Notes under the pieces: generated by a model
Databases searched by the model: none
What the model was told of the DNA's origin: nothing
The model's input: the letters and a program-made list of their open reading frames with translations, nothing else
Assembly: GCA_017427715.1 (NCBI GenBank)
Contig: JAFRSF010000026.1
Coordinates: forward strand, 6-64,005
Direction: 5' to 3'
Source: Alphaproteobacteria bacterium
Lineage (GTDB): Bacteria; Pseudomonadota; Alphaproteobacteria; Rs-D84
DNA: 64,000 nt
Shown: piece after piece, positions 2 to 16,799 of the stretch
Numbering within the stretch: the stretch's first letter is position 1
Layout of the letters: each line of letters begins with the position of its first letter
Program-made: the position numbers and the translations under genes

Positions 2-1522
2 TTACGTTTTGCTTATGAACAGTTGAAGGCGGAAGATTTCAATGATTGCTTGGTGGCCATAGACGAATTTCACCATGTTTCTGCGGATATCAATGCAAGT
101 AAACTTGGGGATCTGTTCCATGGACTTATAATTGGATCTAGTGCACATATTATAGCCATGACCGGATCTTATTTTCGTGGGGATGGTATAGCAGTTATGT
201 TGCCTGAAGATGAATATAAATTTGATCGTGTAACCTATAACTACTATGAACAATTGAATGGGTATAAATATCTGAAATCTTTGGGAATTGGTTATCATTT
301 TTATCAGGGTCAATATATTTCGGCGATCAAAGATGTATTGGATACTGACAAGAAAACAATTATTCATATTCCGTACGTTAATTCACAGGCTTCAACCAAA
401 GATAAATATGAAGAGGTTTCAAAGATTATAGATGTCATAGGCGAAATAGACCATGAAGACCAAGACACCGGTATAATCTATGTAAAAAGACATTCAGACG
501 GTAAGATTTTGAAGGTGGCAGATCTGGTCGAAGAAGATGGGCGTGATCGTGTGGTGACTTATCTTCGAAACATGAAAAGTGAAGATGATCTTGATATTTT
601 GATTGCTCTTGGTATGGCGAAAGAAGGTTTTGATTGGCCTTATTGTGAACATACTTTGACAATTGGGTACAGAGGATCTTTGACGGAAGTTGTGCAGATT
701 ATTGGACGTTGTACCAGAGATAGTGAAAACAAAACACATGCACAATTTACAAACCTTATAGCTGAACCGGCCGCAACAGAAGAACAAACAACAGTGGCGG
801 TACAAAATATGTTGAAAGCCATCACTTGCTCTTTGTTGATGGAACAGGTTATTGCACCAAAATTCGACTTTAAACCACGCAAAGGGTCTGATGTTAGCGA
901 TAATAAACCAGGTGAAATCAAAGTTCGTGGTCTGAAAGATACTACGGATAGGGTTAGTAAAATTTTGGAAACAGATTTAGACGATTTGAAGGCCAAGGTT
1001 TTACAAGATACCGATATTCAAAAAGCAATTCCTGGCAACGTAGATCCACTGATTATAAACAAGCATTTGATACCGAAGATTATCAGAACTGCATACCCGG
1101 ATTTGACCGATGACGAAGTAGATCAAGTACGTCAAAGAGTGGTTGCAGATGCGGCTATCAAGACAGGACATATTGAACAAGTTGGTGACAAGCAATTTAT
1201 CAGAATAGCCAACCAGTTTATAAACATTGTGGATTTGGATATCGATCTTATTGATGCCATTAACCCGTTCCAGAAAGCATTTGAGGTCTTGTCTAAATCG
1301 CTTGATAAAAAGATGTTCAAACTGATCCAGGATTCTATTGACACAACAAGGATCAAAATGACGTTGGACCAAGCTCGTATGTTATGGCCACAGATTCAAG
1401 AATTTCGGAAGAATGTCGGTCATGAACCTTATTATCATTCCAATGATCCAAAAGAACGTGAATTGGCAGAAGCTTTGTTATGTCTGAAAGATGAAATCCG
1501 TAAGCAAAAGGCTGCAAAATGA
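2..1522 (+). CDS. SF2 DExH-box helicase, C-terminal part (5' end outside the window)
   Basis: The reading frame is open from base 2. It shows motif II AIDEFHH, motif III MTGSYFRGD and motif VI QIIGRCTRD, followed by a ~240-aa extension. Confidence 0.8.
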   Translation, partial: LRFAYEQLKAEDFNDCLVAIDEFHHVSADINASKLGDLFHGLIIGSSAHIIAMTGSYFRGDGIAVMLPEDEYKFDRVTYNYYEQLNGYKYLKSLGIGYHFYQGQYISAIKDVLDTDKKTIIHIPYVNSQASTKDKYEEVSKIIDVIGEIDHEDQDTGIIYVKRHSDGKILKVADLVEEDGRDRVVTYLRNMKSEDDLDILIALGMAKEGFDWPYCEHTLTIGYRGSLTEVVQIIGRCTRDSENKTHAQFTNLIAEPAATEEQTTVAVQNMLKAITCSLLMEQVIAPKFDFKPRKGSDVSDNKPGEIKVRGLKDTTDRVSKILETDLDDLKAKVLQDTDIQKAIPGNVDPLIINKHLIPKIIRTAYPDLTDDEVDQVRQRVVADAAIKTGHIEQVGDKQFIRIANQFINIVDLDIDLIDAINPFQKAFEVLSKSLDKKMFKLIQDSIDTTRIKMTLDQARMLWPQIQEFRKNVGHEPYYHSNDPKERELAEALLCLKDEIRKQKAAK

Positions 1523-2691
1523 TAGAAGATTGGTTGCAACAGATCATTGATGAAGATGAATATGGCCTTTTGTATATAAAGCCGATTGTTAGACCACAGA
1601 CCGAAGAAGAACGCACGGTTATGGGGTTTGAAGAGATAAATAGCTTTATTGATAAACATGGCAAAGAACCGACTGACAACCCAAATGATATAATAGAAAA
1701 GCGGTTATTTATGAGATTAAAGGGGCTTAGAAACAATCCGGATCTTGCACACAAATTGAAAGAAGTAGACGTTCATAATTTGCTACCGGAACAAGTAACA
1801 CAAACTGAACCTGCAAGCATTGAAGATATTATGAACAGTGACGATTTTGGTATGTTAGATACAGATCCAGAACATGATATATTCACAATCAAACATGGCA
1901 AACCAGTGAACAGATCTGTTGGTACGTTCGATCATATTGCGAAGCAGAAAAAGTGTAAAGATTTTGATAAATTCGAACACCTTTTCAAATCGTGCCAAGA
2001 GGATCTGAAAAACAATAAGCGTAGATTGCTAAAATTTGCTAATGAGGGATCCATTAAACCAGGTGCATTTTTCGTTTTGCGTGGGATGTTGCTGTATATC
2101 GATAGTGTCGGTGATTTTACATACAGAAACCATCGGCAGCAAGCAAGAACTAGATGTATTTATGAAAATGGCACTGAATCCGATATATTGAGAAATTCTT
2201 TGGCCAAGACCATGTACAGTGAAGGTCAGATTGTTTCTGAAAACGTGGAAGATACATTGAAAGATATGGCTGGGATCACTGAAGAGGATGAATCAAATGG
2301 ATATATTTATATTCTGCGATCATTGAGTAAAGATCCACAAATCAGAGACATCCCAGACTTGTATAAAATTGGTTGGTCTAGTACCGGTGTTGAAGAAAGA
2401 ATAAAAAATGCAATAAACGAACCAACTTATTTGATGGCAAAAGTAAAAATTGTAGAAACATATAAAACATTCAACGTTAATGCTCAGAAGTTTGAAGATA
2501 TAATCCATAAATTCTTCAAAACAGCACAAGTTTTGATAGATGTTACTGATCATAATGGTACAAGATGTTCGCCTCATGAATGGTTTAGTGTGCCTTTGGG
2601 AATAATTCAACAAGCAATAGCATTGTTGGTGTCTGGTGAAATTGTAAAATACAAATATGATTCTGTAACCAAAACGATTGTTGAAAGATAA
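1519..2691 (+). CDS. T5orf172 / MUG113-type GIY-YIG-like domain protein (putative nuclease)
   Basis: Its start overlaps the helicase stop in an ATGA, indicating translational coupling. The C-terminal domain reads GYIYILRS...YKIGWSS...ERIKN...FEDIIHKFF...HEWFSVPL. Confidence 0.7.
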   Translation: MIEDWLQQIIDEDEYGLLYIKPIVRPQTEEERTVMGFEEINSFIDKHGKEPTDNPNDIIEKRLFMRLKGLRNNPDLAHKLKEVDVHNLLPEQVTQTEPASIEDIMNSDDFGMLDTDPEHDIFTIKHGKPVNRSVGTFDHIAKQKKCKDFDKFEHLFKSCQEDLKNNKRRLLKFANEGSIKPGAFFVLRGMLLYIDSVGDFTYRNHRQQARTRCIYENGTESDILRNSLAKTMYSEGQIVSENVEDTLKDMAGITEEDESNGYIYILRSLSKDPQIRDIPDLYKIGWSSTGVEERIKNAINEPTYLMAKVKIVETYKTFNVNAQKFEDIIHKFFKTAQVLIDVTDHNGTRCSPHEWFSVPLGIIQQAIALLVSGEIVKYKYDSVTKTIVER

Positions 2692-2755
2692 AATCACATA
2701 ATCCTTGAATTTCCAGGTTGTTTTGTTATATTTGGCATAAAAGAAAAGGATTATC

Positions 2756-3658
2756 ATGCCAAGTACGGAAGATAAAATAAAATTGAAATTTACTGGTGAA
2801 GATACGACCATTGATGCCACACTGTTGGCACAGACTATATTAGATCTAAATACATTATCAAATATTGCTGCAAAACAGATAGACCCAGAGGCAAAAACTG
2901 GACTTATTCTAACAGAAACGAAACCAGGATGTTTTGAGGCATATTTTTCAACAATTGCGACTGTAGGTGCATCGTTATTGAGTCCAGAAGGCCTAAATAC
3001 GATTGGTGCAATTATAGAATATTTGAGATTCATAATTCAACTAGGGAAAAAACAACCAGAAAGTGTTTCTGTAAATAATTCCAATGGGAATGTAACCGTA
3101 ATTAATGGTGATGGTAATACTATAAATATAAATCGTAATACCTACAACATATATGTAGATCCAAATGCACGAAAAGCAACGACGGATCTTTGGAAATCTT
3201 TATACAAATCGTCACGGCAAGGCGACTTGTCTATATCTGCCACTAATGAAGATCAGGAACAATCTGATCAAAATACAGTAACAATAGAAAAATCGTACGG
3301 TAACAATTTTCCTGATGTAGTTTTTGAACCAAAACAAAACAGTATAGAATCAGAGATGGTAATAAATGCATTCTTGCCTATTCGTAGACCAGATTTAGCC
3401 AAGGATGGTCCATGGGTTATGGAATATCAGCAATCAAATGTTTGGATGAAAATCGAAGATGAACAATTTATGGAAAAAGTAAAATCTGGGACAATATCTT
3501 TCAAATCGGGGGATTCTTTATTGTGTCAATTAAGAATCAAATACGTGGAAGATCCAGATGGGAATCCTGTAGTTGGATCAGAAAAATATTCCATAAAGAA
3601 AGTATTGAAACAGGTTCCTCGTGCTGAAAATGTTGATATGTTTGATCAGGCAGATTAG
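2756..3658 (+). CDS. Hypothetical protein, third gene of the helicase operon
   Basis: A 300-aa ORF with an AAAGGA Shine-Dalgarno before the ATG and the same strand as the helicase. I recognised no motif. Confidence 0.55.
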   Translation: MPSTEDKIKLKFTGEDTTIDATLLAQTILDLNTLSNIAAKQIDPEAKTGLILTETKPGCFEAYFSTIATVGASLLSPEGLNTIGAIIEYLRFIIQLGKKQPESVSVNNSNGNVTVINGDGNTININRNTYNIYVDPNARKATTDLWKSLYKSSRQGDLSISATNEDQEQSDQNTVTIEKSYGNNFPDVVFEPKQNSIESEMVINAFLPIRRPDLAKDGPWVMEYQQSNVWMKIEDEQFMEKVKSGTISFKSGDSLLCQLRIKYVEDPDGNPVVGSEKYSIKKVLKQVPRAENVDMFDQAD

Positions 3659-3726
3659 AATATTTGAACTTTCTCTATTAAGTTACGTCTCTACTCAAGA
3701 AAATGTACCACGAACGGCACCTTTTG

Positions 3727-5415
3727 CTATCTAAACACCGTATACGTATCGCCATTATCCAGTTCTTCTATTGCATTATCAATTCTTTTTAGCATAAGCT
3801 GAGGGATTGTTCGAAATTTCTTAGCTTCTTCGCTTCCTGGCTGTGTTTTTTCATACTGTTGCACTAAAATAAACTTTCTGTTACCACCATCATATTTATT
3901 CTGTGTCATAACAGCATCGCCTGTTGTACCAGAGCCGGCAAAAAAATCAGCAATTATCAGGCCTGCATCTTTTTTACCCAGCAAACGTAAGAGCATCATC
4001 AACAATTTTTTTGGTTTTTTCCCAGCATGGAACGGCACATTAGACTCTTTTTGGATACGGGACTTCTGTGATCGTAAGTCCCAACAATTTCCAAGAATGT
4101 AACCGCTTTCTATCGTCCCATCTTCATTTTCTATCAATTTGTCAGAAAATCGTTTATAATGGACTGTAATGCTTGAAGATAGCTTTTCGAACAAAGACCC
4201 ATCTTTTTCAATTATAACGCCTGTACAGGCATCTGAAGCGTTTTTAAGTGGGTTTGAACGAGGTGTGGTTGGTTTATAAAGTTTGTGTGCTAAATTATTG
4301 TAAAAATAGCTCTCAAATTCACTAGACATATCCACCAACGAAGGTATATTGGCAACACTCATCTTTAGACCGTATTTATGAAAAAGGTTTACCACCCAGT
4401 CCTGAGATTTTAGATAGTCTATTAGTGGCGTTTTCCTGTACAGTGGCTCGATGGGGGCTGCTCGTTCAATAACCCACGTAAAGCCGCTCAGTCTAGTACT
4501 TACTACCGGTTCGTATAATCGTTGCAAATAATTGATCTTGGATATATCACGAGAGAATAAAAGTAAGTAAGAACATACGTTTGGCAATCTGTAATTTGAA
4601 TATCCAACAATCGGTCCGGCACTTTCACTAGTGATAACGGTAACTAAAGAAATAAACTGCTCTGGTCCAAATACTTCGTCCATCAAAAGTCGAAGTTGAG
4701 CAAGCCGATGATGCGAAATACTGATTGCAATAACCCCGTCCGGACTCAACAACTGTTTAGCCAATTGTAATCTTGGATATAAAAAACTTAGAAAATCACA
4801 CGCCCCTTCAAAATTAGCAGAATCCAGATACGGTTGAGGACTGCGAGTTGAAGGTGCATCATACAAAACATCCATGTATATAAGCCCTATACGATCCTTA
4901 TAAGTGGGCATAATTTGTTTCATTACATCCAGGTTGTCCCCTATGTAAATTTCATGATTCTTTTTATTAGGTTGATTATAATGGTCATATGGTTTGAATT
5001 TTTTAGTAGGCGGCATGTTAACCAATTTTTCAGCGGCTGCACGTCCCTGGAATTGTAATGAAACACCGTTGAGATTCTGTGTGCTTGTACTATTGCTTGA
5101 GAAATTTTCAGATAATCCAACCACCGAATTGTATCTATATCGTTGTCCCCATTGACGGCTTGGATCTACAGGTGAAACAAATCCATATTTGATAAGCTTA
5201 TTCACAGTGGTTGTAACATTTTGTCTTGAAACTTTGGTCTTTTTTACGAGGTCTGCCACCGCTTGTTCAGGCTGATCATAAAAAGCGTTCAAAATCATTG
5301 TGGCGGTTCGTGGAAATTTGAATAGCTTTTTTACTTTTTCACGATCAATAGTGGCCCTATCATGATTGATGGCTTCAAGTGTTTTTCTGACGTTTTGAAA
5401 TTTTACGTTTCTCAT
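3727..5415 (-). CDS. Type III Mod-like (beta-class) DNA methyltransferase homolog with N-terminal winged-helix domain; motif IV is degenerate
   Basis: Motif I (ADFFAGSGTTGDAV) lies C-terminal, and LIYMDVLYDAPS sits where IDPPY is expected. The N-terminus has an HTH (ADLVKKTKVSRQNVTTTVNKLIKYGFV). Confidence 0.7.
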   Translation of the reverse strand: MRNVKFQNVRKTLEAINHDRATIDREKVKKLFKFPRTATMILNAFYDQPEQAVADLVKKTKVSRQNVTTTVNKLIKYGFVSPVDPSRQWGQRYRYNSVVGLSENFSSNSTSTQNLNGVSLQFQGRAAAEKLVNMPPTKKFKPYDHYNQPNKKNHEIYIGDNLDVMKQIMPTYKDRIGLIYMDVLYDAPSTRSPQPYLDSANFEGACDFLSFLYPRLQLAKQLLSPDGVIAISISHHRLAQLRLLMDEVFGPEQFISLVTVITSESAGPIVGYSNYRLPNVCSYLLLFSRDISKINYLQRLYEPVVSTRLSGFTWVIERAAPIEPLYRKTPLIDYLKSQDWVVNLFHKYGLKMSVANIPSLVDMSSEFESYFYNNLAHKLYKPTTPRSNPLKNASDACTGVIIEKDGSLFEKLSSSITVHYKRFSDKLIENEDGTIESGYILGNCWDLRSQKSRIQKESNVPFHAGKKPKKLLMMLLRLLGKKDAGLIIADFFAGSGTTGDAVMTQNKYDGGNRKFILVQQYEKTQPGSEEAKKFRTIPQLMLKRIDNAIEELDNGDTYTVFR

Positions 5416-5437
5416 GTGTTTTATTGTAACAAAATAT

Positions 5438-5464
5438 CATGACAAGGTCAATCGGCTTGTCATG
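5438..5464. promoter_or_regulatory. Perfect 9-bp inverted repeat (CATGACAAG-N9-CTTGTCATG) just upstream of the methyltransferase start; candidate operator
   Basis: Read directly from the sequence, 23 bp upstream of the start codon at 5415. The adjacent protein has an HTH domain. Confidence 0.4.
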
Positions 5465-5693
5465 AAAATTGGTATAAAAAATATTTTCAAAAGTTTTTGA
5501 AATTTACAGGCTGAAAGTGGCGGTTTTGTTGGGCGTTTGCCTGCAAATTTTTCTTGTATTAATGGAAATTAAGTTCTGTCTTTAATTTTTCTTGGAATTA
5601 TAATATATATAAGTAATAAAAAAACAAAATAATATCGTCAAAACATACAGTTCTAATAGATATGGGCAATGATATTATAAAGGAAAATAGATT

Positions 5694-7271
5694 ATGGCAC
5701 AGAAGCAAAAATATACAAAAGCAGAATGGGTTATTTTGGATAAAAATACCAGGTTAGCTGCTTGTTTGGGTTTTGATGTGTCTAATACTGCCTTCTGGAC
5801 AAGCAAAAAAGATAAAAATACTGGCTCAACTAAATATTCTAAGTGTAATTTTTCAAATGGTTGTGTTTGGGATGAAAGTTTACGAACGGTTCGTAAAACG
5901 CCTCTTAAATCATTTTTGAGTTCGAATTTTGGCAAAGAACCCGTGTTTGACGAGTTTAGAATTCCTAAAAAACCGAACTTGATCAAATGGAAAAATGTTA
6001 TAGCACCAATTGCTCATCCAAATATTTTTGTATATGATTTTGATAATCATGACAATTTGGCTTCTTTATCCCAGAAAATACAAGAAATTTATGAAAGATT
6101 GCATCAAAATAAGGACTTGTTGATAGGATATAAAACAGGGTTCAATGGTTTACATGTGTTTTGTTTGGTGCAACATAAAAGCATAGTAGAAAAAGAATGT
6201 GAAGAATTTGAATCTACGGGTGGTCATATTGATATATTTAACAGTGAAAAAGGTAATGGCATAGGAATCCCAGGTTTTGATCATTATCTGTACAAGGAAG
6301 AAGAAGTTCAACATTTTATAGATATTGCTGAGGTTCAAATCGAAGGCCGGCTTTCTATATATCAATCAAAACCTGATCAACCTATAAAATACCCAAAACC
6401 ATTAGAAATTTCACCAGATGTGATAGAAACTATTCAGTTATATAAAGCTGCTAAAGCTAATATAAAATCGCATAAAGACGGTGTAAAAAATTGTGTAATG
6501 TGGCGACATAACACAGGAGTGGAACGTGGTGTAGAATATATAGAATCACTTATGAGTGCAAAAGGCCACAGAACAGAAATTTTATTATCAAGCAATGGTC
6601 ACGAATATATCACTAGGGCGTTATCAAATTTAAATATACAGGATATAACTGATTTTAGGAAACGTTTCCCAGATTTCGAAGAGAATCATTACAAATTGAT
6701 AGAAGAAAGAATAGAATATATAAAAAATACAAAGAACAAAACAACATCGACCAGAATTCAGTGCGATAAAAATTATAAGGAAGATATACTAGAATTGAAC
6801 GCTTCCTTGAGAGAATTTTTCATTTCTAATGGTATAAAACCCAAGAAAGAACTGTTGTTTGTAGCAACATATTTGGCGAATTGTACGCACCGTAATATTC
6901 GTTGCCCTGGGTATATTCATTACATAGAATTTTGTAAAATGAACGAGTTAGAAATTATACCAGAAAGAAGTTATTATCGTATAGTAAAAGAATGTAAAGA
7001 CCATAGACTTATTTCTATTCCAAACGGTGGTGTATGGACTGTAGGGAAGAAATGTAGAGAAATAATAAAAGGTCATTTATTATATGTGTTCGATTTTGAA
7101 AGAAGTAAAAAAGTTCTTCATAAAGTATTTGATTATATTCAAGTAAATGTTACTTATAACAAATTGTATAGCTATTCTTTCTTTTCTACAGTATTATGTA
7201 CTGCCAAAAATGCAATTGTCACAATAACAGACATGTTCAATATGCAGAATTTTTACTATCTTAGACCATAA
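5694..7271 (+). CDS. Archaeo-eukaryotic primase (prim-pol) domain protein, putative island replication protein
   Basis: The three AEP motifs occur in order: IFVYDFDNHD (DxD), TGFNGLHVFCL (sGxGxH) and GGHIDIF (hD). The C-terminal ~300 aa is unknown. Confidence 0.55.
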   Translation: MAQKQKYTKAEWVILDKNTRLAACLGFDVSNTAFWTSKKDKNTGSTKYSKCNFSNGCVWDESLRTVRKTPLKSFLSSNFGKEPVFDEFRIPKKPNLIKWKNVIAPIAHPNIFVYDFDNHDNLASLSQKIQEIYERLHQNKDLLIGYKTGFNGLHVFCLVQHKSIVEKECEEFESTGGHIDIFNSEKGNGIGIPGFDHYLYKEEEVQHFIDIAEVQIEGRLSIYQSKPDQPIKYPKPLEISPDVIETIQLYKAAKANIKSHKDGVKNCVMWRHNTGVERGVEYIESLMSAKGHRTEILLSSNGHEYITRALSNLNIQDITDFRKRFPDFEENHYKLIEERIEYIKNTKNKTTSTRIQCDKNYKEDILELNASLREFFISNGIKPKKELLFVATYLANCTHRNIRCPGYIHYIEFCKMNELEIIPERSYYRIVKECKDHRLISIPNGGVWTVGKKCREIIKGHLLYVFDFERSKKVLHKVFDYIQVNVTYNKLYSYSFFSTVLCTAKNAIVTITDMFNMQNFYYLRP

Positions 7272-7338: not shown

Positions 7339-7647
7339 ATGTCAATTTTGAATGTAAGTAGAACAGCAAATCAACAAAATCCCTATTGTAATTTTCGTTT
7401 TCAAGATCCTAATAATCCAAATCATAATCCATGTAAAATAATGGTAAAGGAATCTGATGTATGGAAATATATGGGGTGTATGGAAAAAGGATGGGTGTTT
7501 AGGGATGGTAAAAAAGAAGTGCAATTCCAAAAGTGTGATGGTGGCACAGTATTAAATACTATCGTAAACGGGACAACATATCCTTATACTCTATTTGATA
7601 GTGAAAAACAACAGGTCTACGATTGGATAGAGCAAAATCTAGTGTAG
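7339..7647 (+). CDS. Hypothetical small protein
   Basis: A 102-aa ORF with an AAAGGA Shine-Dalgarno. Its 3' end overlaps the integrase 3' end by 9 nt. Confidence 0.4.
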   Translation: MSILNVSRTANQQNPYCNFRFQDPNNPNHNPCKIMVKESDVWKYMGCMEKGWVFRDGKKEVQFQKCDGGTVLNTIVNGTTYPYTLFDSEKQQVYDWIEQNLV

Positions 7648-9084
7648 GGTATGTTGTATTAGTGAGGTTATAGAATCTGGTAATATTCCACCAAACAAAA
7701 GTTCCATATAGGGGTATTGTATTTGGTTTACAGCGTTTATCATCTTAGTTGGTAACCTGGTAAAACTTTGTTTGTTGTACACCCTTGATGAGATTGATTT
7801 GTTTGATGGTTTATTGCCGGCTATAGCTTCCAGCATGTCTCTGCTTATATGCATTTCGTTATGGCTGTAGAATGATTCCTTGAGGCTGTGCATATCAAGC
7901 ATAAATTTATCTGTAGTTTTTGGTTTGATATTTATAACTTTAAACAAGACATTTACACATTCGTTCATTACCTTTGGTCTATAACCTTGTTTTGTCTTAT
8001 TTTGAATCATTTCTTCGAATATAAAAGCCTGTGATCCATATTTTTGTTCGTGTTGTTTTATGTAATCGATCAGTCCAAGTTCTTCTAGCACTATTGCGAT
8101 TGGTATCTTACGTTCTGAATCATCTGTTTTTAGTTTTTTATAAGTTTCTCTGGTATCGCCTTGTTGAATTATTGTTTCGTTTCTGGATATGGTTATTGTT
8201 TTATTACAGCAATCTACGTCTTGGTGTCTGATCGTTATTGCTCCACAGGCTCTTGTTCCAGTAAATAAGCAAATAAGAATAACATAACCGATCTGTAAGG
8301 GGTATTGTTTGATTGTGTCTAGCCGATTTAATTCCACACTAGATAAATTGATGGGGTGGTTCAAAAATGTAATATCTCGGTGTAGCAATTTATAAAGACA
8401 ACAAAAAAGCTTCTCAAAATCGGGTTCAGATAAAGGCTCTCTGCGAACCGATGCACCAAACCCCTTTATCTTCCGTATTTGTAGTTTGGATATGAGTTTG
8501 TCGGCATTATCTATCCATTCTCTATCTGCAGCATGATTTATAACCTGGCGAAGTAATAACAGATAATTTTTCAACGTTTTAGCTGCTATAGTTTTTCCTT
8601 TATGTATCCCAGCTTGTATCGGTGTGTCCCTAAATTTGCTTATCATGGTGTATATAAGGTCTGGCTGTGCAGCTAAATCTTCTATATATTTGCACCCTAA
8701 AAACTCCACGACTCTTACGATATATGCTCTGTTGTTGCGTAGCCTTATCTCATTCTTACATTGATGCTGCAGACTGTCCCATACCTTTACAATATCATGT
8801 TTTGCTAAGGACTGTTTTGGGACTGATATTTTAGCGGAATTTGTGTGAGTAAAAGAGGGGATAATAGGGACTGATTGGATAGGACTGTTGGCTAAATTCT
8901 GTGATAAAATCTGTCTAAGCAAAAAGATGGCGATATAAGGATCAGATGTGTGTAGGGACTTATAAATACGCTTACCATTGATCTGTTGCCGATAATAATA
9001 AACGCCATTTCTAAGACTCAAATTACGACAGACAGGTAACGACAAACTGGCATCAAAGTTACGGGAAAATAAAAAAGATTGCAT
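7639..9084 (-). CDS. int: Tyrosine recombinase / integrase
   Basis: The N-terminus reads NGVYYYRQQINGKRIYKSL, and the C-terminal catalytic region reads TGTRACGAITIRHQD...MHSLKESF...RVY. It is adjacent to the tRNA. Confidence 0.75.
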   Translation of the reverse strand: MQSFLFSRNFDASLSLPVCRNLSLRNGVYYYRQQINGKRIYKSLHTSDPYIAIFLLRQILSQNLANSPIQSVPIIPSFTHTNSAKISVPKQSLAKHDIVKVWDSLQHQCKNEIRLRNNRAYIVRVVEFLGCKYIEDLAAQPDLIYTMISKFRDTPIQAGIHKGKTIAAKTLKNYLLLLRQVINHAADREWIDNADKLISKLQIRKIKGFGASVRREPLSEPDFEKLFCCLYKLLHRDITFLNHPINLSSVELNRLDTIKQYPLQIGYVILICLFTGTRACGAITIRHQDVDCCNKTITISRNETIIQQGDTRETYKKLKTDDSERKIPIAIVLEELGLIDYIKQHEQKYGSQAFIFEEMIQNKTKQGYRPKVMNECVNVLFKVINIKPKTTDKFMLDMHSLKESFYSHNEMHISRDMLEAIAGNKPSNKSISSRVYNKQSFTRLPTKMINAVNQIQYPYMELLFGGILPDSITSLIQHTLH

Positions 9085-9151
9085 ATCCAGCCCTTTTATC
9101 TGTCTGCAATCTCAAGCAAACTAGGCAATCTATGCAACCTTATCTAAATCT

Positions 9152-9227
9152 TGGCTCGGGCAACTGGACTCGAACCAGTGACATATGGATTAACAGTCCA
9201 TTGTTCTACCGACTGAACTATGCCCGA
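9152..9227 (-). tRNA. tRNA-Asn (anticodon GUU), intact, CCA encoded
   Basis: A 76-nt cloverleaf read by hand: TCGGGCA/TGCCCGA acceptor, GTTC/GAAC D stem, ATGGA-CTGTTAA-TCCAT anticodon arm, ACTGG-TTCGAGT-CCAGT T arm. It is close to E. coli tRNA-Asn. Confidence 0.95.
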
Positions 9228-16253: not shown

Positions 16254-16799
16254 ATGAATCGTGCTATCAAATTAAAATTAAAAAATGGGAAAATTGTGAC
16301 AATTCGCCGTCTACGCGCGGAAGATTATGATGCTGTTGTAAAATATTATAAAGAATTTAATAATGGCCCTAGTGCAAAAATGGTATTTGAATATCCGGGA
16401 TCCCCGGTAAGCACAAAGGAACATATGGTAAATAAATGGGAAAACAAAAATAATCTATGTATTGCTGCGTTTGATGGCAATAAAATTATTGGGTGCGCCC
16501 AAATTTGCAAAATAATGCCCGATCATCCTTTTTCTGGCCGCAATGCTATAACAGGAACCACCATGTTGGAAAAATATACATCTAATGGATTAGGAACAAA
16601 ATTCAAGCAGATTGTTGAAAAATGGGCGCATGAGAATAATGTCCATAAATTGGTTGCCGAAACCTTTCATAAAAACAACCGTTCCGTTGGAAATTTGTTA
16701 AAAAATGGTTATGAAATTGTCGGTATATTACATGATGTAGCTTTTATAGATGGCGAATGGTATCATCAGTATAATTTGGAAAAAATATTAGAAAAATAG
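16254..16799 (+). CDS. GNAT N-acetyltransferase (paralog of 20270..20815)
   Basis: The ATG at 16254 is preceded by AAGGA. The N-terminus MNRAIKLKLKNGKIVTIRRLRAEDY nearly matches MNRSIKFKLKNGKFITIRRTRGADY. Confidence 0.7.
   Translation: MNRAIKLKLKNGKIVTIRRLRAEDYDAVVKYYKEFNNGPSAKMVFEYPGSPVSTKEHMVNKWENKNNLCIAAFDGNKIIGCAQICKIMPDHPFSGRNAITGTTMLEKYTSNGLGTKFKQIVEKWAHENNVHKLVAETFHKNNRSVGNLLKNGYEIVGILHDVAFIDGEWYHQYNLEKILEK

What the first reader, a model, noticed from the sequence alone, without database searches (positions are those of the whole stretch)
2..5464. Candidate defence module on the tRNA-Asn island: SF2 helicase, T5orf172 nuclease-like protein, unknown protein, and a convergent Mod-like methyltransferase
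The helicase and the T5orf172/GIY-YIG-like gene overlap in an ATGA, indicating translational coupling. A 300-aa unknown protein follows after 64 bp. A Type III Mod-like gene converges on the operon. All of this sits on an integrase-bearing island that has its own prim-pol replication gene and no virion genes. That is the kind of satellite or integrative element that commonly carries anti-phage cargo. The helicase + nuclease + methyltransferase logic resembles restriction-modification-like or helicase-nuclease defence systems. However, I cannot match the gene set (T5orf172 partner, unknown third gene, methyltransferase with an altered catalytic motif) to a named system from memory.
Basis: partly seen in the sequence, partly recalled or inferred. 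Interest (0 to 1): 0.6.

Follow-up and report, generated by a model that had tools for sequence, protein, structure and literature searches.

The report
Known YeeABC-type restriction-like defence trio
The helicase and T5orf172 genes are two parts of an already described three-gene, restriction-modification-like anti-phage system; its methyltransferase gene lies just upstream on another contig, so this is an ordinary new member carried as swappable cargo on a 15-kb tRNA-Asn island.

Summary
The genes are real and sit where stated. The ATGA overlap, the 64-bp spacer, the convergent Mod-like gene and the integrase/tRNA-Asn island are all confirmed.

The proposed four-gene module is not the functional unit. 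The window cuts the helicase. Contig C10 of the same genome carries its first 134 aa and, 12 bp upstream, an 899-aa MmeI-family methyltransferase/TRD protein that lacks an alignable PD-ExK nuclease region. Four metagenome assemblies join the two contigs with 7 bp between them.

MmeI-like + SF2 helicase + T5orf172/GIY-YIG is the DnmA(YeeA)-YeeB-YeeC cluster. It was described in 2009, studied in B. subtilis, and shown to protect Vibrio crassostreae. Synteny is near-obligate: helicase in 76/77 loci, MmeI-like gene in 58/59. All catalytic motifs are intact.

The Mod-like gene (DPPY changed to DVLY, N-terminal wHTH) belongs to the island backbone. It travels with the 525-aa gene, the 102-aa gene and the recombinase, while the neighbouring cargo changes (Type I RM + GmrSD + PLD in a Ca. 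Enterousia relative).

The 300-aa protein is a PDC-S42/LAPAL-family member with an OB-like C-terminal domain. The wider family is mostly prophage-borne. Its own subfamily repeatedly follows methyltransferase-based cassettes, so an accessory role stays open.

Verdict: new member of a known kind, modest interest.

The parts
2..1522 (+). YeeB-like SF2 (DExH) helicase. The window holds the C-terminal 506 of 645 aa. The first 134 aa are on contig C10 of the same genome (L015:404..3, minus strand).
   Evidence: full-length relatives are 645 aa; the N-terminus is on C10; four assemblies join C10(rc) to C20 with the 7 bases TACGCAT; motifs PASGKS, DEFHH, MTGSYFRGD and QIIGRCTRD are invariant. AF2 model matches the generic SF2 core, including Type ISP LlaBIII and EcoR124I HsdR.
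1519..2691 (+). YeeC-like protein. The N-terminal ~250 aa are of unknown fold. The C-terminal part is a T5orf172 (GIY-YIG-like) nuclease domain. It is translationally coupled to the helicase through an ATGA overlap.
   Evidence: PF10544, E 1.7e-12, residues 261-368; the overlap. G261, Y264, K283-I-G285, R294, E326, H330 and E354-W355 are 100% conserved in 46 sequences; the helicase lies directly upstream in 76 of 77 loci with room; 46% identical to the Acinetobacter 'YeeC-like' protein.
2756..3658 (+). 300-aa PDC-S42 / LAPAL-family / phrog_3243 protein. It has an alpha/beta N-terminal part and an OB-like C-terminal beta-barrel. It is a facultative neighbour of the trio and a possible accessory gene.
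   Evidence: PDLC05015, E 5e-22. NF053583, 148 bits against a cut-off of 60; phrog_3243; 732 representative clusters. AF2 pLDDT 87.6; no significant PDB match; uncharacterised phage proteins at E 1e-8; contexts of the subfamily.
2705..2732 (+). Sigma-70-like site (TTGAAT-16-TATATT with a TG extension) inside the 64-bp spacer. It may be an own promoter for the 300-aa gene.
   Evidence: the site is listed, but the total count of sites equals the chance expectation; the spacer sequence is conserved in L104. This is weak evidence only.
3727..5415 (-). wHTH (MarR-like) fused to a Type III Mod-like beta-class N6/N4 methyltransferase whose motif IV is degenerate (DVLY). It is an island backbone gene, not part of the defence operon.
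   Evidence: domains. DPPY to DIPY to DILY/DVLY across the subfamily, with motif I kept; co-conserved with the 525-aa gene, the 102-aa gene and the recombinases while the adjacent cargo differs; absent from all 80 trio loci.
5437..5465 (.). Perfect 10-bp inverted repeat (TCATGACAAG N9 CTTGTCATGA) overlapping the -35 of the best promoter-like site of the Mod-like gene. It is a candidate operator for that gene's own wHTH.
   Evidence: coordinates; identical in L151 and partly kept in L141. TTGACC-17-TACAAT at 5451..5423 on the minus strand.
5694..7271 (+). 525-aa island backbone protein.
   Evidence: no hits; homologs at 49% (L141) and 88% (L151), in both cases divergent from the Mod-like gene.
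7339..7647 (+). 102-aa island backbone protein of unknown function.
   Evidence: homologs in L141 (38%) and L148 (30%) in the same relative position.
7639..9084 (-). 481-aa tyrosine integrase of the island.
   Evidence: phrog_1 integrase, E 9e-21; 50% identical homolog next to the Mod-like gene in L148.
9146..9168 (.). att core. This 23-nt direct repeat (AAATCTTGGCTCGGGCAACTGGA) overlaps the 3' end of tRNA-Asn. The second copy lies on C10 (position 232 of its reverse complement), 15,357 bp away.
   Evidence: and (family D5 in L096: 1012-1034 and 16369-16391).
9152..9227 (-). tRNA-Asn (GTT), the integration target.

Best explanation
**What it is.** Window 2..2691 holds the last two genes of a three-gene, restriction-modification-like defence system of the DnmA(YeeA)-YeeB-YeeC type.

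- **First gene.** It is on contig C10 of the same genome (L015:3115..416, minus strand; 899 aa). It is an MmeI-family gamma-class N6-adenine methyltransferase with its own target-recognition domain. Its first ~87 residues cannot be aligned to the PD-ExK nuclease core of MmeI.
- **Second gene.** A 645-aa SF2 DExH helicase follows after 12 bp.
- **Third gene.** A 390-aa protein with a C-terminal T5orf172/GIY-YIG-like nuclease domain follows through an ATGA overlap.

**Inferred mechanism.** This follows Morgan et al. 2009 and was not shown here.

1. The MmeI-like subunit reads an asymmetric site and methylates one strand of host DNA.
2. On unmodified incoming DNA it recruits or licenses the helicase/translocase and the GIY-YIG-like nuclease, which cut the DNA.
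3. This is a split, Type I / Type ISP-like division of labour.

**Setting.** The trio, together with a 300-aa PDC-S42/LAPAL-family gene, is the cargo of a 15.4-kb integrative island in tRNA-Asn.

- The island's conserved frame is: DUF2779/Cas4-like gene, short tyrosine recombinase, [cargo slot], wHTH-Mod-like gene, 525-aa gene, 102-aa gene, integrase.
- The same frame carries other defence genes in relatives.
- The convergent Mod-like gene is frame, not cargo.
For: **Shown here**

- **The upstream gene exists and is contiguous.** tblastn places helicase residues 1-134 and an MmeI-like ORF on C10. Four independent assemblies (L096-L099) join C10(rc) to C20 with 7 bp between them.
- **Identity of the upstream gene.** PADLOC REase_MTase_IIG, E 6e-301. 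Pfam MmeI_N, MmeI_hel, MmeI_Mtase, MmeI_TRD and MmeI_C. PDB MmeI 5HR4, E 1e-181, aligned only from residue 108 of the 919-aa reading, which is residue 88 from the ATG. The position-equivalent N-terminal stretch reads E-R-V or E-Y-C, not E-x-K.
- **Synteny.** Among 80 genome loci from at least six phyla found with the T5orf172 partner, the helicase is adjacent in 76 of 77 with room, and the MmeI-like gene is upstream in 58 of 59 with at least 2.9 kb. The same holds in metagenome loci L007-L014.
- **Catalytic motifs.** All three proteins have intact motifs that are invariant across the family.
- **Accessory status.** The T5orf172 partner is absent from 18 same-genus and 12 same-order genomes.
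- **Cargo swap.** L151 (Ca. Enterousia) has the same frame at 88-100% identity but carries Type I S + Type I M + GmrSD + PLD instead. L141 and L148 show the same pattern.
- **Transcription.** Metatranscriptome contigs cover the helicase and T5orf172 genes, and one spans their junction. This is weak evidence.

**From the literature**

- Architecture and proposed mechanism: PMC2731913.
- DnmA is an active m6A methyltransferase at GACGAG: PMC7261158.
- Conserved cluster with YeeB at +1 and YeeC (T5orf172) at +2: PMC9973331.
- yeeAB confer phage resistance in V. crassostreae: bioRxiv 10.1101/2021.05.05.442762.
Against: - No direct sequence comparison with B. subtilis YeeA/B/C was possible. The link is by architecture, by Pfam content and by 46% identity to the Acinetobacter 'YeeC-like' protein.
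- In B. subtilis the trio gave no protection against three phages and no restriction of transformation (PMC9973331, PMC7261158). Activity is therefore not guaranteed.
- Absence of a nuclease in the MmeI-like N-terminus is inferred from failure to align, not from a structure.
- The restriction mechanism has never been reconstituted biochemically.
- Nothing here tests methylation or protection.
Confidence: 0.8

Rival explanations
1. Four-component system. The 300-aa PDC-S42/LAPAL-family protein is a functional fourth subunit or accessory of the trio, for example a nucleic-acid-binding sensor or regulator acting through its OB-like domain. More generally, it would be an accessory of methyltransferase-based defence cassettes.
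For: - Every homolog with at least 52% identity whose context could be read sits on the same strand directly after a methyltransferase-based cassette.
- Four of these follow YeeABC trios with different flanks: the window's own island, L104, L105 and L153, with gaps of 30-108 bp.
- One follows an Eco57I/TaqI_C-type methyltransferase plus a DUF4357 protein (L155/L156).
- Linkage persists down to 52% identity, with a 30-bp gap in L105.
- The AF2 model shows an OB-like C-terminal domain.
Against: - The gene is absent from 88 independent trio loci by profile search.
- It is absent from three close trio relatives, L007, L009 and L016, whose helicases are 88-97% identical.
- In 13 other genomes the wider family sits in prophage-type neighbourhoods with no trio within 9 kb.
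- PADLOC lists it as a single-gene candidate.
- The conserved spacer contains a promoter-like site.
- No RNA contig links it to the T5orf172 gene.
Confidence: 0.2
2. Helicase, T5orf172 protein, 300-aa protein and the convergent Mod-like methyltransferase form one restriction-modification-like system, with the Mod-like protein as its modification subunit.
For: The genes are physically adjacent. The Mod-like protein belongs to the Type III Mod family (MTase_III, E 1e-52). In principle a helicase plus a nuclease could play the part of Res.
Against: - The Mod-like gene is absent from all 80 trio loci.
- It is co-conserved with the island frame genes while the neighbouring cargo changes.
- Its motif IV is degenerate, DVLY.
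- The trio already has its own methyltransferase.
- The gene is convergent and has its own promoter and operator.
Confidence: 0.03
3. Relic system. As proposed for B. subtilis, the trio here no longer restricts. Only the methyltransferase matters, as an orphan epigenetic regulator, and the helicase and nuclease genes are passengers.
For: B. subtilis dnmA-yeeB-yeeC gave no protection against three phages, no restriction of transformation, and no depletion of the motif in phage genomes (PMC9973331, PMC7261158).
Against: - All catalytic motifs are intact and invariant.
- All three ORFs are full length, whereas the MmeI-like gene is split in L105 and the pair is truncated in Acinetobacter transposons.
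- Helicases of close relatives are 88-98% identical, while the methyltransferase/TRD proteins have diverged to 72-88%. That is the pattern expected when specificity diversifies under selection.
- The cassette is recently mobile cargo in a 1-Mb genome, where useless DNA is unlikely to persist.
- The V. crassostreae homologs protect (bioRxiv 10.1101/2021.05.05.442762).
Confidence: 0.15

Closest known systems
DnmA(YeeA)-YeeB-YeeC cluster of Bacillus subtilis and its homologs in Vibrio crassostreae. [quoted passage not shown] 2009.
   Same: - Same three genes in the same order and on the same strand: an MmeI-like methyltransferase/TRD without a recognisable PD-ExK motif, then an SF2 DEAD/DEAH helicase, then a protein with a C-terminal T5orf172/GIY-YIG-like domain.
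- It lies on a low-GC, horizontally acquired element next to recombinase genes.
   Different: - The host is a gut alphaproteobacterium with a ~1-Mb genome (Ca. Enterousia-like).
- The helicase (645 aa) and the T5orf172 protein (390 aa) are full length, whereas the B. subtilis proteins are reported to lack C-terminal stretches (PMC9973331).
- A PDC-S42-family gene follows the trio here.
- No functional data exist for this locus.
MmeI and the Type IIL / IIG single-polypeptide enzymes (PDB 5HR4)
   Same: The helical spacer, the gamma-class N6A methyltransferase domain (FDPACGSGNF, NPPY), the TRD and the C-terminal domain align over residues 108-908 at E 1e-181.
   Different: The N-terminal PD-ExK nuclease core (D70, E80, K82 in MmeI) is not alignable. 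Cleavage is presumably handed to separate helicase and nuclease subunits.
Type ISP (LlaGI, LlaBIII) and Type I (EcoR124I HsdR) ATP-dependent restriction enzymes
   Same: They combine a methyltransferase/TRD, an SF2 translocase and a nuclease. The helicase model matches LlaBIII (E 1.5e-8) and HsdR (E 2.5e-7) among other SF2 cores.
   Different: - Here the three activities are on three polypeptides.
- The nuclease is GIY-YIG-like, not Mrr- or PD-ExK-like.
- There is no separate HsdS.
- The structural similarity is confined to the generic two-RecA core (TM about 0.35-0.40).
PADLOC candidate PDC-S42 / NCBIfam NF053583 'LAPAL motif-containing putative phage structural protein' / phrog_3243 (for the 300-aa gene)
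   Same: Full-length matches to all three models. Family members are uniformly about 300 aa.
   Different: - The window's protein is a divergent member, at most 33% identical to any representative outside its own subfamily.
- Its subfamily follows methyltransferase cassettes, whereas the wider family sits in prophages.
- The predicted fold (alpha/beta plus an OB-like barrel) gives no support to the 'structural protein' label.
Type III restriction-modification Mod subunits (for the convergent gene)
   Same: A beta-class N6_N4_Mtase fold with motif order IV, TRD, I. PADLOC MTase_III, E 1e-52.
   Different: - It has an N-terminal MarR-like wHTH.
- Motif IV is DVLY instead of DPPY.
- There is no adjacent res gene.
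- It is conserved as an island frame gene.

Membership tests
DnmA/YeeA-YeeB-YeeC (nuclease-less MmeI-like methyltransferase + helicase + GIY-YIG-like protein) | An MmeI-homologous methyltransferase/TRD subunit that resembles MmeI over its whole length except the first ~100 residues | tested here: met
   MmeI 5HR4, E 1e-181, aligned 108-908; all five MmeI Pfam domains. PDLC03598, E 6e-301. The gene is on contig C10, joined to the window in L096-L099.
DnmA/YeeA-YeeB-YeeC (nuclease-less MmeI-like methyltransferase + helicase + GIY-YIG-like protein) | No PD-ExK endonuclease motif (MmeI D70, E80, K82) in the N-terminal domain | tested here: met
   the first ~87 residues do not align to MmeI, even when searched alone at E up to 10; the equivalent stretch reads ...LFERV / ...FYEYC, with no E-x-K, in four relatives. 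Caveat: this is sequence-level evidence only; no structure of this domain was made.
DnmA/YeeA-YeeB-YeeC (nuclease-less MmeI-like methyltransferase + helicase + GIY-YIG-like protein) | An SF2 DEAD/DEAH helicase gene immediately downstream on the same strand | tested here: met
   a 12-bp gap in L096. ResIII, DEAD and Helicase_C domains; motifs intact; present in 76 of 77 loci.
DnmA/YeeA-YeeB-YeeC (nuclease-less MmeI-like methyltransferase + helicase + GIY-YIG-like protein) | A gene for a protein with a C-terminal T5orf172/GIY-YIG-like domain immediately after the helicase | tested here: met
   PF10544, E 1.7e-12, at residues 261-368. ATGA overlap; catalytic-type residues invariant.
DnmA/YeeA-YeeB-YeeC (nuclease-less MmeI-like methyltransferase + helicase + GIY-YIG-like protein) | Direct sequence homology to B. 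subtilis YeeB and YeeC | not tested
There is an indirect link only: 46% identity to the Acinetobacter Tn2006/Tn2009 protein that the literature calls 'YeeC-like', which lies next to 'DEAD helicase YeeB'.
DnmA/YeeA-YeeB-YeeC (nuclease-less MmeI-like methyltransferase + helicase + GIY-YIG-like protein) | m6A methylation of one strand of an asymmetric site, and phage restriction that depends on the helicase and the nuclease | not testable with these tools
   This needs a long-read methylome and plaque assays.
Canonical MmeI-type (Type IIL) single-polypeptide restriction enzyme | An N-terminal PD-ExK nuclease within the same polypeptide | tested here: not met
Type III restriction-modification (Mod + Res) | A Mod subunit with a catalytic (D/N/S)PP(Y/F) motif and an adjacent, co-oriented res helicase-nuclease gene | tested here: not met
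   the motif is DVLY; there is no res gene, the neighbouring genes are convergent or divergent, and the nearby helicase is tied to the MmeI-like gene.
PDC-S42 / NF053583 LAPAL_fam (300-aa gene) | A full-length match to the family model above its curated cut-off | tested here: met
   148.2 bits against a cut-off of 60, model positions 1-291 of 292. PDLC05015, E 5e-22, positions 4-299 of 302.
PDC-S42 / NF053583 LAPAL_fam (300-aa gene) | A virion structural role, as NCBIfam's name suggests | tested here: inconclusive
   no match to any capsid, tail or baseplate fold, only OB-like partial hits and uncharacterised phage proteins; neighbours elsewhere include both early/immunity genes and structural genes of prophages.
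DISARM / BREX (other methyltransferase + helicase defence systems) | The signature genes: DrmA/DrmB (DUF1998) for DISARM, and PglZ/BrxC for BREX | tested here: not met
   only weak partial hits of the methyltransferase to DrmMI and PglX, through the shared methyltransferase core. No DrmA/B, PglZ or BrxC is on the island.

The most novel reading that the evidence does not exclude
The 300-aa PDC-S42/LAPAL-family protein, with its OB-like C-terminal domain, is not a bystander. It would be a portable accessory module that plugs into methyltransferase-guided defence cassettes. Its close subfamily follows four YeeABC trios in different islands and one unrelated Eco57I-type methyltransferase + DUF4357 cassette. 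It might sense phage nucleic acid or an anti-restriction factor and so widen or gate the restriction response. A wider reading: the island frame (short recombinase ... wHTH-Mod-like protein with a decayed DPPY motif) is a dedicated defence-cassette exchange platform in ~1-Mb gut alphaproteobacterial genomes.
Probability: 0.2. Interest if true: 0.55.

Novelty: new member of a known kind. Interest (0 to 1): 0.3.

Why it matters
- **Why it is not new.** The trio has been known bioinformatically since 2009, and one natural Vibrio system has been shown to protect. This locus is therefore not a new kind of system.
- **Value as a specimen.** The mechanism of YeeABC-type systems has never been reconstituted, and the B. 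subtilis copy seems inactive. This locus offers a compact, intact, recently mobile copy in a 1-Mb genome. Close relatives show a diversifying TRD and a nearly invariant helicase.
- **Worked example of cargo exchange.** The same tRNA-Asn island frame holds YeeABC + PDC-S42 in one species and Type I RM + GmrSD + PLD in another.
- **Testable lead.** The recurrent placement of a PDC-S42-family gene after methyltransferase cassettes gives a concrete test for a PADLOC candidate with no known function.
- **Practical lesson for the scan.** A module cut by a contig end can look unnameable until the neighbouring contig is found.

Tried and rejected
- **Pattern scans for the 300-aa protein.** Scans of genome contigs and viral contigs found nothing. 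The family alignment was too divergent for pattern scans. I replaced them with the representative-library search and a whole-genome search with NF053583.
- **Early tblastn result.** Single-sequence tblastn suggested the 300-aa gene was never linked to the trio (0 of 80 loci). That was too strong. Identity look-ups showed linkage within its own subfamily.
- **Promoter and terminator scan.** It gave counts equal to chance: 41 promoter-like sites against 39.6 expected, and 5 terminator-like sites against 4.9. I use it only as a weak hint.
- **'Prim-pol' claim for 5694..7271.** Pfam, NCBIfam, PHROGs and PDB sequence searches all returned nothing useful. I ran no further search on it.
- **Helicase structure.** The model matched only the generic SF2 core. 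The C-terminal extension (about 420-645, with an invariant NPFQ motif at 560-563) had no specific match.
- **RNA evidence.** Only low-depth metatranscriptome contigs from related strains were available. They cannot settle the operon structure.
- **Literature.** Searches for 'PDC-S42' and 'LAPAL motif' returned nothing. No paper from 2022 onward was found that names the trio as a defence system or reconstitutes it.
- **Rejected assignments.** Type III RM, DISARM, BREX, canonical MmeI and a fused Type ISP enzyme are all ruled out (see the membership test).

Full report
**1. Observation**

- The ATGA overlap is real, with ATG at 1519-1521 and TGA at 1520-1522. The spacer to the third gene is 64 bp.
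- Pfam gives Helicase_C for the first ORF. It gives T5orf172 (E 1.7e-12, residues 261-368) for the second and nothing for the third. For the convergent ORF it gives N6_N4_Mtase plus a MarR-type winged helix.
- tRNA-Asn lies at 9152..9227 (-). It is flanked by a 481-aa integrase (phrog_1, E 9e-21).

**2. The window cuts the operon**

- The window starts at base 6 of contig C20. Full-length relatives of the helicase are 645 aa.
- tblastn against the whole assembly places helicase residues 1-134 at the very end of the 6.4-kb contig C10. Directly upstream of them lies an MmeI-like ORF.
- An identity look-up of the window's own 300-aa protein returned four independent metagenome contigs (L096-L099). 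In these, C10(rc) and C20 are contiguous with only TACGCAT between them. The helicase gene is therefore intact.
- The operon reads: MmeI-like (899 aa), 12 bp, helicase (645 aa), ATGA overlap, T5orf172 protein (390 aa).

**3. Identity of the upstream gene**

- It matches PADLOC's Type IIG model PDLC03598 at E 6e-301 and carries all five MmeI Pfam domains.
- It aligns to the MmeI crystal-structure sequence (5HR4) at E 1e-181, but only from residue 108 of the 919-aa reading.
- The first ~87 residues, searched alone, still align only from residue 88 on.
- In four relatives the stretch that corresponds in position to MmeI D70...E80-x-K82 has no E-x-K.
- The methyltransferase motifs FDPACGSGNF and NPPY are invariant.

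**4. This is a known system**

- Morgan et al. 2009 (PMC2731913) split MmeI homologs into two sets. One set has PD-ExK. [quoted passage not shown] They proposed that the MmeI-like subunit supplies specificity and single-strand modification, while the helicase and nuclease cut the DNA.
- Nye et al. 2020 (PMC7261158) showed that B. subtilis YeeA, renamed DnmA, is an active m6A methyltransferase. They called the trio a possible Type I-like or non-canonical RM system.
- Fernandez et al. 2023 (PMC9973331) confirmed the conserved order dnmA, helicase (+1), T5orf172 protein (+2). They found no protection in B. subtilis.
- Piel et al. (bioRxiv 10.1101/2021.05.05.442762) showed that yeeAB mediate resistance to one phage group in V. 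crassostreae.
- I found no paper from 2022 onward that renames the trio or reconstitutes it.

**5. Co-conservation, tested here**

- The T5orf172 partner retrieved 80 genome loci. They come from Alphaproteobacteria, Campylobacterota, Patescibacteria, Bacteroidota, Actinomycetota, Chloroflexota and Verrucomicrobiota.
- The helicase lies directly upstream in 76 of the 77 loci with room for it. The MmeI-like gene lies upstream of that in 58 of the 59 loci with at least 2.9 kb of sequence.
- In some loci an AIPR gene is inserted between the methyltransferase and the helicase.
- The Mod-like gene and the 300-aa gene were found in none of the 80 loci (profile search).
- Catalytic-type residues are invariant. 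In the T5orf172 protein these are G261, Y264, K283-I-G285, R294, E326, H330 and E354-W355. In the helicase they are PASGKS, DEFHH, MTGSYFRGD and QIIGRCTRD.
- Among close relatives the helicase is 88-98% identical, while the methyltransferase/TRD protein is only 72-88% identical. This fits diversifying specificity on a conserved motor.

**6. The helicase and its C-terminal extension**

- An AF2 model was built from a 40-sequence alignment (pLDDT 76.8).
- It matches many SF2 enzymes through the two RecA domains (TM about 0.35-0.40). These include MrfA, Hel308/Hjm, the Type ISP enzyme LlaBIII (E 1.5e-8) and the Type I HsdR of EcoR124I (E 2.5e-7).
- The extension (about 420-645) is mostly helical with a small beta unit. 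It carries an invariant NPFQ motif at 560-563. It has no specific structural match.
- It is a candidate docking region, but that is inference.

**7. The island and the Mod-like gene**

- A 23-nt direct repeat of the tRNA-Asn 3' end bounds a 15,357-bp element.
- Gene order: DUF2779/Cas4-like (488 aa), short tyrosine recombinase (195 aa, -), MmeI-like, helicase, T5orf172 protein, 300-aa gene, Mod-like (-), 525-aa gene, 102-aa gene, integrase (-), tRNA-Asn.
- The Mod-like protein belongs to a small subfamily (P0128-P0142, at least 40% identity). That subfamily is set well apart from canonical Type III Mods, which are about 30% identical.
- Within the subfamily, motif IV decays from DPPY to DIPY to DILY/DVLY, while motif I is kept.
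- Relatives of the Mod-like gene show that it belongs to the frame, not the cargo:
  - L141: Mod-like at 90%, 525-aa gene at 49%, 102-aa gene at 38%, in the same arrangement. Serine recombinases replace the integrase. The cargo is PLD + GmrSD + Type I M/S.
  - L148: Mod-like at 41%, integrase at 50%, a 102-aa-like gene. The cargo is SNF2-PLD + an MmeI_Mtase-like gene.
  - L151 (a Ca. Enterousia MAG): DUF2779 at 95-100%, short recombinase at 100%, Mod-like at 94%, 525-aa gene at 88%. The cargo is Type I S + Type I M + GmrSD + PLD.
- The Mod-like gene is therefore part of the island frame. The slot between the short recombinase and the Mod-like gene exchanges defence cassettes.
- A perfect 10-bp inverted repeat at 5437-5465 overlaps the gene's best promoter-like site and is conserved in L151. 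This suggests autoregulation through the wHTH.
- None of 18 same-genus and 12 same-order genomes carries the T5orf172 partner.

**8. The 300-aa gene**

- It matches PADLOC candidate PDC-S42 (E 5e-22), NCBIfam NF053583 'LAPAL motif-containing putative phage structural protein' (148 bits against a cut-off of 60) and phrog_3243.
- The family is large and uniformly about 300 aa: 732 representative clusters. It is sporadic, found in 18 of 401 genomes of the phylum and always as a single copy.
- In 13 other genomes no trio lies within 9 kb. The neighbours there are largely prophage genes such as MuB, CI/S24 repressors, Erf, Mu portal, tape measure and baseplate.
- The AF2 model is confident (pLDDT 87.6, pTM 0.78). 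It has no significant PDB match. The best partial hits are OB-fold domains: HIN-200, ExoVII, aaRS anticodon-binding domains and SSB, at E 0.03-0.3. Its only significant matches are uncharacterised phage proteins, the best at E 1e-8.
- The window's own subfamily (at least 52% identity; only seven clusters among 5.8 billion proteins) behaves differently from the wider family.
  - In the own island, L104, L105 and L153 it follows a YeeABC trio, with four different flanks and gaps of 30-108 bp.
  - In L155/L156 it follows an Eco57I/TaqI_C-type methyltransferase and a DUF4357 protein.
  - Yet three equally close trio relatives (L007, L009, L016) lack it.
- I read it as facultative defence-island cargo, with about a one-in-five chance of being a true accessory subunit.

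**9. Transcription**

- Two gut metatranscriptome runs hold low-depth contigs over the helicase and T5orf172 genes. One spans the ATGA junction (1418-1925).
- None lies over the 300-aa or Mod-like genes. The contigs diverge just past the T5orf172 stop codon, so they come from relatives without the 300-aa gene.
- This agrees with the pair being one transcription unit, but it is weak evidence.

**10. Verdict**

- The Mod-like gene is island frame. The 300-aa gene is a PDC-S42-family neighbour of uncertain relation to the trio.
- The mechanism is inferred from the literature and from intact motifs, not shown: methyltransferase-guided self-marking, plus helicase- and GIY-YIG-dependent cleavage of unmarked DNA.
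- Novelty: new member of a known kind. Interest: 0.3.

Noticed in passing
window 3727-5465; L141, L145, L148, L151: The wHTH-Mod-like methyltransferase subfamily shows stepwise decay of catalytic motif IV (DPPY to DIPY to DILY/DVLY) while motif I is kept. It is a conserved frame gene of integrative islands, always placed at the edge of a variable defence-cargo slot. A perfect 10-bp inverted repeat overlaps its promoter. It may be a regulator or an anti-restriction methyltransferase of the element.
   Followed up: partly
L151:1-11286 (Ca. Enterousia sp. MAG JAZQCG010000003.1) compared with L096:1012-16391: The same island frame at 88-100% protein identity carries Type I S + Type I M + GmrSD + PLD in place of MmeI-like + helicase + T5orf172 + the 300-aa gene. 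This is a clean example of defence-cassette replacement at a fixed slot.
   Followed up: yes
L015:3437-4024 (+), which is L096:3188-3775 (-); also L141:16642-17244: A short (195-203 aa) tyrosine recombinase sits directly beside the specificity-bearing gene in each island. Here that gene is the MmeI-like methyltransferase/TRD; in L141 and L151 it is the Type I hsdS gene. It could be a cassette integrase or a specificity-shuffling recombinase. No inverted TRD repeats were seen.
   Followed up: partly
L096:594-679 compared with 16413-16498; L097:1-284: An 86-nt inverted copy (93% complementary) of the 5' half of tRNA-Asn plus its upstream region lies about 330 bp outside the left att repeat. ARAGORN does not call it as a tRNA. 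In L097 a second T5orf172-domain gene lies further to the left. This suggests a second, disrupted tRNA-Asn locus with another element.
   Followed up: no
L011-L014 (for example L011:8347-10008): In a branch of the trio with 66% helicase identity, a 553-aa AIPR (abortive-infection) gene is inserted between the MmeI-like gene and the helicase, overlapping the helicase start. This is another facultative fourth gene of the system.
   Followed up: no
L155:3-3282 and L156:2-4661: A 76%-identical copy of the 300-aa gene follows an Eco57I/TaqI_C-type 922-aa N6-methyltransferase and a 324-aa DUF4357 protein, with gaps of 22 bp and an 8-bp overlap. That cassette is an RM-like system unrelated to the trio.
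   Followed up: partly
L007:13174-18912: Next to a 92%-identical trio lies a block resembling Zorya: a MotA/ExbB-like gene, an OmpA-like gene, a 193-aa gene and a 921-aa SNF2 helicase, flanked by DUF8245 genes.
   Followed up: no
L105:4202-6849: The MmeI-like gene is split into 583-aa and 272-aa ORFs (methyltransferase part and TRD/C part). It is either a pseudogene or a frameshifted copy in that relative.
   Followed up: no
L152 (Acinetobacter wuhouensis plasmid NZ_CP033130.1, 99814-102430): The ISAba1-bounded blaOXA-23 transposons of Acinetobacter carry a truncated helicase and a broken T5orf172 gene that is 46% identical to the window's protein. These are remnants of a YeeABC trio captured by the transposon.
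   Followed up: partly
window 2756-3658: NCBIfam names the family 'putative phage structural protein', while PADLOC lists it as a defence candidate. The confident AF2 model (an OB-like C-terminal barrel, with no capsid- or tail-like fold) does not support the structural label.
   Followed up: yes
Only two homologs were found (L141 at 49%, L151 at 88%). The label rests on short motifs only (YDFDNHD, GFNGLHVF).
   Followed up: partly
whole genome G000: The genome is about 1.0 Mb (95% complete, 36% GC). Its genus and order have 0.7-1.1-Mb genomes from animal guts. A 15.4-kb defence island is about 1.5% of such a genome.
   Followed up: no
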